Below the pieces are notes generated by a model. The model was not told where the DNA came from. It saw only the letters and a list, made by a program, of their open reading frames with translations, and searched no databases. A DNA stretch of 64,000 bases from Octopus sinensis (Eukaryota). This document shows positions 22,973 to 23,118 of the stretch, one piece after another. The DNA lies in contig NC_042998.1 of NCBI RefSeq assembly GCF_006345805.1, positions 52,638,001-52,702,000 on the forward strand, read 5' to 3'. A program made the translations under genes and the position numbers. The number at the start of each line of letters is the position of its first letter. Position 1 is the first letter of the stretch.

Positions 22973-23118
22973 CTGCAGTGTACAACTAGAGGGGCTAATT
23001 TGTTCTCGTTGTTAAGTCTGACATCAAGGATAAATTTTAAAAATGAGATAGGTTCTGGAAACCCTTGTGCTGGCCATGAGGTATACCAATAGTGTTTCAA
23101 TTTACGGACTAGATTGTT
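22973..23118 (-). CDS. PTP catalytic-domain exon (WPD-loop region to HCS)
   Basis: Acceptor ttttattttacag|, donor |gtgagc; 146 nt, phase 0 to 2. Translates NNLVRKLKHYWYTSWPAQGFPEPISFLKFILDVRLNNENKLAPLVVHC(S) and splices in frame to 20049, giving VHCSSGTGRTG. KHYWYTSWP resembles PTPRR/PTPN5/PTPN7-type PTPs. Confidence 0.95.

What the first reader, a model, noticed from the sequence alone, without database searches (positions are those of the whole stretch)
22973..23118. PTP with a natural WPD-to-WPA substitution but intact catalytic Cys/Arg/Gln: candidate substrate-trap or pseudophosphatase
Seen: the exon encodes KHYWYTSWPAQGFP (TGG CCA GCA), while the spliced P-loop VHCSSGTGRTG and Q-loop VQTKQQY are intact with clean splice sites and no stops. 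Known: the WPD Asp is the general acid, Asp-to-Ala is the engineered substrate-trapping change (PTP1B D181A), and IA-2/PTPRN has WPA naturally but with HCSDG. Here the flanking sequence is PTPRR/PTPN5/PTPN7-like with HCSSG. A-to-I editing cannot convert GCA to an Asp codon. Inference: a maintained, catalytically impaired pTyr-binding or scaffold PTP, or one with altered (e.g. lipid) specificity.
Basis: partly seen in the sequence, partly recalled or inferred. Interest (0 to 1): 0.75.

Follow-up and report, generated by a model that had tools for sequence, protein, structure and literature searches.

The report
Ancient receptor pseudophosphatase lacking general acid
This octopus exon belongs to an intact, spliced cell-surface receptor gene whose tyrosine-phosphatase domain lacks its catalytic acid, as do most of its relatives from flies to amphioxus, so the family is likely a little-studied non-catalytic signalling receptor rather than a one-off natural substrate trap.

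Summary
The minus-strand exon 23118-22973 encodes WPA and is spliced in RNA contigs. It is exon 10 of an intact 12-exon, 1142-aa gene: signal peptide, mucin stalk, SEA-like domain, one TM helix, one PTP domain. The interpretation needs correcting. Ala is not a special trap change: in 128 family members (molluscs, annelids, arthropods including Drosophila, hemichordates, amphioxus) the Asp position drifts (A35, E25, V19, S14, D12). The P-loop is not canonical either: C+2 is Pro in 114/128 (Ser here, the change that inactivates HD-PTP) and C+4 is Thr in 128/128 (as in PTPRU). Cys and Arg are invariant. No member has both Asp and Ala. The family is a clade sister to PTPRR/KIM-PTPs (99/92) without a KIM; this genome has separate canonical PTPRR-type and IA-2 genes. 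Best reading: an ancient bilaterian receptor pseudophosphatase, IA-2-like in design but apparently separate in origin, acting as a scaffold or binding module (0.62). Rivals: enzyme for another substrate (0.17), pTyr trap (0.13). No activity data. It is probably the Drosophila CG42327 group (recalled, not verified). New variant of a known kind; interest 0.45.

The parts
22973..23118 (-). Exon 10 of 12 (aa 1012-1060): WPD-loop exon, ends in VVHC
23068..23076 (-). W1026-P1027-A1028 (TGG CCA GCA); Ala at the general-acid position (PTP1B D181)
22975..22980 (-). H1058-C1059, catalytic Cys retained
19890..20049 (-). Exon 11 (aa 1060-1113): rest of P-loop and Q-loop
20034..20048 (-). S1061-G-T1063-G-R1065: C+2 Ser (canonical Ala; family mostly Pro), C+4 Thr (canonical Val/Ile), Arg retained
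19920..19922 (-). Q1103, Q-loop Gln (PTP1B Q262), retained here; 107 of 128 in family
37564..37701 (-). Exon 9 (aa 966-1011), PTP domain beta strands
1..64000 (-). The whole window lies inside the gene (about 303 kb). Exons outside the window, in extended window numbering: exon 1 278243-278177 (start); exon 2 202373-200203 (mucin stalk, most of the SEA-like domain); exon 3 172402-172280 (TM); exons 4-8 170303-170148, 163730-163650, 150552-150471, 130593-130517, 108884-108747 (juxtamembrane motifs, KNRY loop, DFWRMVW); exon 12 about 25.1 kb before window base 1 (last helix, tail, stop)
   Evidence: folds

Best explanation
The exon is part of an intact single-domain receptor PTP gene (signal peptide, mucin stalk, predicted SEA-like domain, TM helix, one PTP domain) from a family spanning bilaterians and sister to PTPRR, and its PTP domain is likely a pseudophosphatase that serves as a scaffold or binding module rather than turning over phosphotyrosine. 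Shown: gene structure, splicing, family membership, residue states. Inferred from known PTP chemistry: without the WPD Asp there is no general acid/base; Ser or Pro at C+2 would further impair phosphate/pTyr positioning (Pro also removes a P-loop backbone NH); Thr at C+4 may remodel the loop as in PTPRU. Inferred and untested: the ectodomain senses something extracellular or luminal, conserved juxtamembrane motifs route the protein, and the retained Cys/Arg/KNRY pocket keeps the fold and binds a partner or senses redox.
For: Asp position in 128 members: A35, E25, V19, S14, D12, others; control set of 61 D1 and KIM domains: D59. Its entropy is 3.06 bits, 92nd percentile of the domain's columns in 103 rows. 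The 11 Asp rows need 7 changes on a 102-row tree, so Asp is scattered. C+2: P114, S9, T3, A2 vs A59/61; C+4: T128/128 vs V44, I14 of 61; Q262 kept in 107/128 vs 58/61. 0 of 127 scored members have both Asp and C+2 Ala. PTP1B D181A lowers kcat about 1e5-fold (PMC10148153, passage). HD-PTP is inactive through C+2 Ser and S1394A restores activity; IA-2/IA-2beta have Asp there (PMC2661844, passages). PTPRNs lack pTyr activity through two catalytic-domain changes (PMC11802530, passages). PTPRU's C+4 Thr sits by the Cys in an occluded site, and PTPRU acts as a scaffold (PMC7320164, passages). The gene is intact: 12 exons, all GT-AG, 3 differences from O. bimaculoides in aa 761-1142 vs 32 in aa 1-760.
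Against: No activity or binding data exist for any member. Cys, Arg, Trp and C+4 Thr are 128/128, and KNRY/F, E115 (117/128) and Q266 (123/128) are largely kept. That is tighter than D2 domains at C+2/C+4 and fits a pocket with real chemistry. Thr at C+4 alone did not inactivate PTPRK (PMC7320164). Phogrin carries similar lesions yet is reported to act on phosphoinositides (PMC11802530). Twelve members do have Asp. The effect of Pro at C+2 is my inference, not from a paper. Counts include isoforms and close relatives (94 scored 50%-cluster representatives give the same picture: E24, A23, V13, D10).
Confidence: 0.62

Rival explanations
1. An active enzyme with changed specificity: the rebuilt C-x-P/S-G-T-G-R loop dephosphorylates a non-pTyr substrate (for example phosphoinositides) without needing the WPD acid.
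For: Cys, Arg and Thr are invariant in 128/128 from insects to amphioxus while Asp drifts. Phogrin and PTPRQ are precedents for lipid activity with changed loops (PMC11802530; PMC5336234). The domain is membrane-tethered.
Against: No replacement acid: W+3 is Asp in only 15/127, and the only acidic family-specific conserved positions found were E883 (before KNRY) and residue 1080, neither in the WPD loop. The KNRY pTyr loop is kept; Q262 is lost in 21/128. HD-PTP (also Ser at C+2) and PTPRU were inactive on the phosphoinositides tested.
Confidence: 0.17
2. A natural substrate trap or pTyr reader, like PTP1B D181A: it binds phosphotyrosine proteins tightly through the kept KNRY/Cys/Arg pocket and shields them.
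For: Y46, D48-equivalent (Asp here), Cys, Arg and Gln are kept in this protein. Ala is the commonest state (35/128). D181A keeps substrate affinity (PMC10148153).
Against: The position is free rather than fixed as Ala: 24 Ala rows need 16 changes on the tree. A homology model in PMC2661844 has C+2 Ser making no favourable contact with pTyr, and PTPRU's Thr loop blocks pTyr binding. WPA conservation in coleoids says little, as their domains are 86% identical.
Confidence: 0.13
3. An ordinary, if slow, tyrosine phosphatase using another residue or water as acid.
For: Nucleophile, Arg and most scaffold motifs are kept; Pfam PTP E=1.8e-70 over 3-234/234; the model superposes on PTPRR/HePTP/STEP at 2.4-2.6 A.
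Against: 59/61 control domains have Asp and 59/61 have C+2 Ala; this protein has neither.
Confidence: 0.05
4. Artefact, pseudogene, private allele, D2 domain or plain IA-2 orthologue.
For: An AU test does not reject a family + IA-2 clade (p=0.124; one 148-aa IA-2 row). The SEA-like + TM + single impaired PTP layout matches IA-2.
Against: Intact ORF and spliced contigs; same residue in other coleoids. One PTP domain only (0 of 131 members have a second, though single-domain was part of my definition); family + D2 clade rejected, p=0.002. The genome has a separate IA-2 gene (best PDB hits PTPRN2 7e-27 and IA-2 5e-23).
Confidence: 0.03

Closest known systems
R7 / KIM-PTPs (PTPRR, PTPN5/STEP, PTPN7/HePTP)
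   Same: Sister clade in PTP-domain trees (99/92; 97/92). Gly four residues before KNRY in 125/126 family and 13/13 KIM rows vs 1/43 other. Signal peptide-ectodomain-TM-single PTP layout. Top Atlas feature hit is a PTPRR_N cluster (0.97); top Foldseek hits are PTPRR/HePTP/STEP by a narrow margin.
   Different: No KIM; WPD Asp lost; P-loop CSP/SGTGR rather than CSAGIGR; long mucin stalk. A canonical PTPRR-type gene exists separately in this genome, and Saccoglossus has both types.
R8 IA-2/PTPRN and phogrin/PTPRN2
   Same: SEA-like membrane-proximal domain (Z 6.8, rmsd 3.7, 86 aligned to 2qt7), TM, one PTP domain; IA-2 also has WPA (2i1y) and a changed C+2 (PMC2661844).
   Different: C+2 is Pro/Ser rather than Asp; C+4 Thr; KNRY kept; a separate IA-2 gene is in the genome; the best tree puts the family with R7.
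HD-PTP (PTPN23)
   Same: C+2 Ser as in this octopus protein; WPD Asp lost.
   Different: Cytosolic protein (recalled: Bro1-domain); WPE; divergent pTyr loop; not grouped with the family (long branch, place unsure).
PTPRU D1 pseudophosphatase
   Same: Thr at C+4; WPD Asp changed; Cys kept; scaffold role.
   Different: Tandem-domain R2B receptor with a degraded pTyr loop; here KNRY is intact and there is one domain.
Drosophila CG42327 (identity recalled, not verified)
   Same: Drosophila-species members exist (D. elegans, D. obscura, D. sulfurigaster, Scaptodrosophila) with mucin-TM-PTP layout, WPE and CSPGTGR. From memory CG42327 is the melanogaster gene of this build.
   Different: No D. melanogaster record came up among the named hits. 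The 7 papers naming CG42327 (4 read by passage) gave no description of the protein in what I read.

Membership tests
Classical PTP fold (PF00102) | Full PTP domain with HCX5R | tested here: met
   E=1.8e-70, 3-234/234; fold match
Active classical PTP | WPD general-acid Asp | tested here: not met
   Ala1028; Asp in 12/128 family members
Active classical PTP | Ala at C+2 (VHCSAGxGR) | tested here: not met
   Ser1061; Ala in 2/128; importance shown for HD-PTP (PMC2661844)
Active classical PTP | Cys, Arg, Q-loop Gln, KNRY Tyr | tested here: met
   C1059, R1065, Q1103, Y888
Pseudophosphatase (biochemical sense) | No measurable turnover | not testable with these tools
   needs an assay; the sequence-based definition quoted in PMC11802530 is met
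R7 / KIM-PTP | KIM motif before the PTP domain | tested here: not met
   KIM pattern in 0 of 26 family rows and 3 of 3 KIM controls
R7 / KIM-PTP | Nested within the KIM-PTP clade | tested here: not met
   sister clade, each 100% supported; no vertebrate R7 row was in the tree
R7 / KIM-PTP | PTPRR_N-type ectodomain | tested here: inconclusive
   PF26155 not in library; hhalign vs invertebrate PTPRR ectodomains prob 1.3%; Atlas 0.82, lead only
R8 / IA-2 | Orthology with IA-2 | tested here: not met
   separate IA-2 gene in the genome; best tree groups the family with R7, though a family + IA-2 clade is not rejected, p=0.124
R8 / IA-2 | Receptor_IA-2 (PF11548) / RESP18 ectodomain | tested here: inconclusive
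   no such Pfam hit in 4 proteins or 15 SEA-like stretches, but the predicted fold is SEA-like
R8 / IA-2 | Asp at C+2 | tested here: not met
   0/128
D2 of tandem receptor PTP | Second of two PTP domains; in the D2 clade | tested here: not met
   one domain directly after the TM; AU p=0.002
Substrate-trap type (D181A-like) | Asp lost with an otherwise canonical pocket and kept pTyr affinity | tested here: inconclusive
   pocket is not canonical (C+2, C+4); affinity not testable here
Drosophila CG42327 group | Orthology with the D. melanogaster gene | not tested
   no named melanogaster sequence was returned; recalled only

The most novel reading that the evidence does not exclude
A receptor family as old as bilaterians and apparently lost in vertebrates rebuilt its PTP pocket to C-x-P-G-T-G-R and has held Cys, Thr and Arg invariant ever since while discarding the general acid, because the pocket does a specific new job: acid-independent chemistry on a non-pTyr substrate, or reading of a phospho-ligand, coupled to a mucin-SEA sensor outside the cell.
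Probability: 0.27. Interest if true: 0.75.

Novelty: new variant of a known kind. Interest (0 to 1): 0.45.

Why it matters
Receptor pseudophosphatases are known from a few cases (IA-2, phogrin, PTPRU, D2 domains). This appears to be a further lineage, sister to PTPRR, present in the molluscs, annelids, arthropods, hemichordates and amphioxus sampled here and mislabelled in databases as mucin, adhesin or PTPN7. It pairs a free general-acid position with an invariant, derived P-loop, so it is a natural test of what a Cys/Arg pocket is kept for once catalysis on pTyr is gone. Drosophila-species members make it genetically tractable. The octopus Asp-to-Ala change itself is not special.

Tried and rejected
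Editing rescue: GCA to GCG stays Ala, and no RNA contig lists a change there. Second copy in the genome: 1 match at 100%, the other 9 matches at 32-47% among 22 candidates. Profile-profile comparison with PTPRR-type ectodomain and juxtamembrane regions: not significant (1.3% and 0.9%), which does not exclude remote homology. Foldseek of the SEA-like model: no hit at E<=0.001; Pfam on 15 SEA-like stretches: nothing significant. PF11548 search of the genome found nothing over cut-off; IA-2 was found through its PTP exons instead. PF26155 is not in the library. Run X10 gave no cover of the exon (76% read); that is no evidence. Range is a lower bound: the representative search lists only 150 hits with tandem PTPs interleaved, so echinoderms, nematodes, flatworms and cnidarians were neither found nor excluded, and only 30 representatives were looked up by name. 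Absence in vertebrates rests on recalled knowledge of the human PTP set and on no close PDB hit. Rows dropped from tallies: P0250 and P0258 (fragments) and P0259 (garbled C-terminus); P0220 was unscored only. The HD-PTP row was dropped, and other rows thinned to 44, for the AU tests. Paper searches: CSPGTGR 0; SEA domain + PTPRR 0; one search gave 0; one search gave 3, none on this family by title or abstract start; one search gave 1 screen; CG14714 gave 4 irrelevant. Five papers were not held, including two phosphatome surveys that may already catalogue this family. Earlier findings: none in 3 look-ups. dN/dS was not computed, as I had no orthologous coding DNA. No complex prediction was run, as no binding partner is claimed.

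Full report
Observation. The finding lies on the minus strand. Exon 23118-22973 has an AG acceptor and GT donor and reads through WPAQGFP to VVHC, with TGG CCA GCA at 23076-23068. It joins exon 20049-19890 to give VHCSSGTGRTG and VQTKQQY. The joint appears in contigs from 4 of 4 runs (kinds guessed: three RNA, one unknown); three long contigs cover the whole exon with no other letters. In one search, of 4 runs, one RNA run spans the exon with 3 other letters (the 2 listed are synonymous by my reading), one spans it unspliced and unchanged, one covers part and one none. Editing cannot supply Asp.

The gene. The exon is 100% identical to an Octopus bimaculoides protein annotated mucin-5AC. Mapping that protein onto 384 kb of the own genome gives 12 exons over about 303 kb, all GT-AG, and an open 1142-aa frame with 1107 of 1142 identities: 32 differences in aa 1-760 and 3 in aa 761-1142. 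Three exons lie in the window. The layout is signal peptide, mucin stalk (35% S+T), a folded domain at about 636-756, one TM helix, about 50 juxtamembrane residues, one PTP domain and a short tail. The folded ectodomain models well (pLDDT 87.6). It matches membrane-adjacent SEA/ferredoxin-like domains: PCDH15 Z 9.2 (rmsd 3.6, 106 aligned), CELSR1 6.9, IA-2 6.8, CDH23 6.7. Foldseek and Pfam gave nothing significant, so SEA-like is a predicted fold, not a family assignment.

The family. From 259 proteins I took 131 as family by single-domain status and profile scores; isoforms and close relatives are included. Named members come from cephalopods, gastropods, bivalves, a chiton, Lingula, Owenia, Ridgeia, a nemertean, decapods, barnacles, spiders, sea spiders, horseshoe crab, a millipede, insects including several Drosophila species, two hemichordates and Branchiostoma. 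A SEA-like region scores in 91 of 131; many insect members lack a score. The range is a lower bound.

Placement. In an 82-row tree the 30 family rows form a clade (100/99) that broadly follows animal phylogeny and is sister to 9 KIM-PTP rows (99/92); a 44-row tree repeats this (97/92). A family + D2 clade is rejected (p=0.002); family + IA-2 is not (p=0.124, one partial IA-2 row). A Gly four residues before KNRY is shared by 125 of 126 family and 13 of 13 KIM rows against 1 of 43 others. The own genome has a separate gene with WPDH and HCSAGIGR exons. Another exon of that gene retrieves PTPRR/PTPN5-like proteins that carry a KIM, and a representative's best single-domain PDB hit is PTPRR. The genome also has a separate IA-2 gene. 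Saccoglossus has both the KIM type and this family, so the duplication predates the protostome-deuterostome split. A KIM pattern was found in 0 of 26 family rows and 3 of 3 controls. No vertebrate R7 sequence was in the trees.

Catalytic residues (128 family rows against 61 D1 and KIM domains that I assume active). General acid: A35, E25, V19, S14, D12 and others, against D59. C+2: P114, S9, T3, A2, against A59. C+4: T128, against V44 and I14. Cys, Arg and Trp: 128 of 128. Q262: 107 against 58. Y46: Y108, F19. No scored member (0 of 127) has both Asp and C+2 Ala. The acid position is in the 92nd percentile of column entropy; Asp (11 rows) needs 7 changes and Ala (24 rows) 16 on a 102-row FastTree with those columns masked. 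The octopus Ala is therefore one state of a free site, and its sharing among coleoids means little at 86% domain identity.

Mechanism. From passages read: D181A cuts PTP1B kcat about 1e5-fold and keeps affinity (PMC10148153). HD-PTP is inactive because of Ser at C+2, is reactivated by Ser-to-Ala and showed no lipid activity, and IA-2 proteins have Asp there (PMC2661844). PTPRNs lack pTyr activity through two changes, while phogrin is reported to act on phosphoinositides (PMC11802530). PTPRU has Thr at C+4 next to an occluded Cys and works as a scaffold, though that Thr alone did not inactivate PTPRK (10.1101/805119 and PMC7320164). This protein combines all three kinds of departure. I infer negligible pTyr turnover and a scaffold or binding role (0.62). 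That Pro at C+2 removes a phosphate-binding amide is my inference from known P-loop geometry. Against this, Cys, Thr and Arg are invariant and KNRY is kept, tighter than D2 domains at C+2/C+4, so a changed-substrate enzyme (0.17) or a pTyr trap (0.13) remain live. There are no activity data.

What is known. It works like IA-2, HD-PTP or PTPRU, but fails membership of R7 (no KIM, not nested), R8 (separate orthologue, no C+2 Asp) and D2. No held paper contains the P-loop string, and searches found no description. Seven papers name CG42327; the four I read by passage only list it in screens, a homology table or as a BLAST match. That CG42327 is the fly member is recalled, not shown, and two phosphatome surveys that may catalogue it were not held. 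PMC5336234 and PMC10815196 were read by passage. No supplements were read.

Verdict. A real and conserved feature. The single Asp-to-Ala story does not hold, but behind it is an ancient, little-studied receptor pseudophosphatase family with a derived, invariant P-loop. New variant of a known kind; interest 0.45; bold reading probability 0.27, interest 0.75 if true.

Noticed in passing
P0001 aa 830-835 (exon 4, outside window) and family: A juxtamembrane motif of the form aromatic/hydrophobic-x-N-x-small-F/L/M-D/E is in 110 of 123 members vs 0.7% of shuffles (pattern derived from the same sequences). It resembles NxxF/NPxY-type sorting signals (recalled). A second S-L-D-S-I/V-type motif at aa 811-817 is in 82 of 123.
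   Followed up: partly
SEA-like domain, P0001 aa ~650 and ~687: Two Cys are invariant in 15 of 15 aligned SEA-like domains from molluscs to a hemichordate; likely a disulfide. No Pfam family covers the domain.
   Followed up: partly
P0163, P0171, P0255 (spiders where named): These members have WPD together with C+2 Thr (CSTGTGR): the nearest the family comes to a canonical site and a good test of whether Asp alone gives activity.
   Followed up: no
P0229 and other dipteran members: Fly members carry an insertion of roughly 25-50 aa between the WPD loop and the P-loop and have no scoring SEA-like domain.
   Followed up: no
L078:3686-3853 (G000 C8787): The genome's IA-2 gene has WLD at the WPD loop, closer to phogrin's WYD than to IA-2's WPA; its P-loop exon was not found on this 42-kb contig.
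   Followed up: partly
G000 C14 64.4-65.4 Mb, C8698, C9321; L001 (C10), L074, L075: Clustered PTP-domain matches, and other PTP genes with altered sites (WSG loop and C+2 Asp in L001; WPE in L074 and L075), suggest further expanded or impaired PTP domains in this genome.
   Followed up: no
window 1076-1438 (+): A 120-aa frame resembling the C-terminal end of a LINE ORF2 (recalled resemblance), in intron 11.
   Followed up: no
window 28971-30223: Tandem arrays in intron 9 (63-bp unit x6.2; 286-bp unit x2.4) with similar units.
   Followed up: no
P0018, P0022 (Saccostrea), P0021 (Sinanodonta): Database models carry long C-terminal extensions with unrelated Pfam domains (PF02146; PF10390/PF07303), probably fused gene models.
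   Followed up: no
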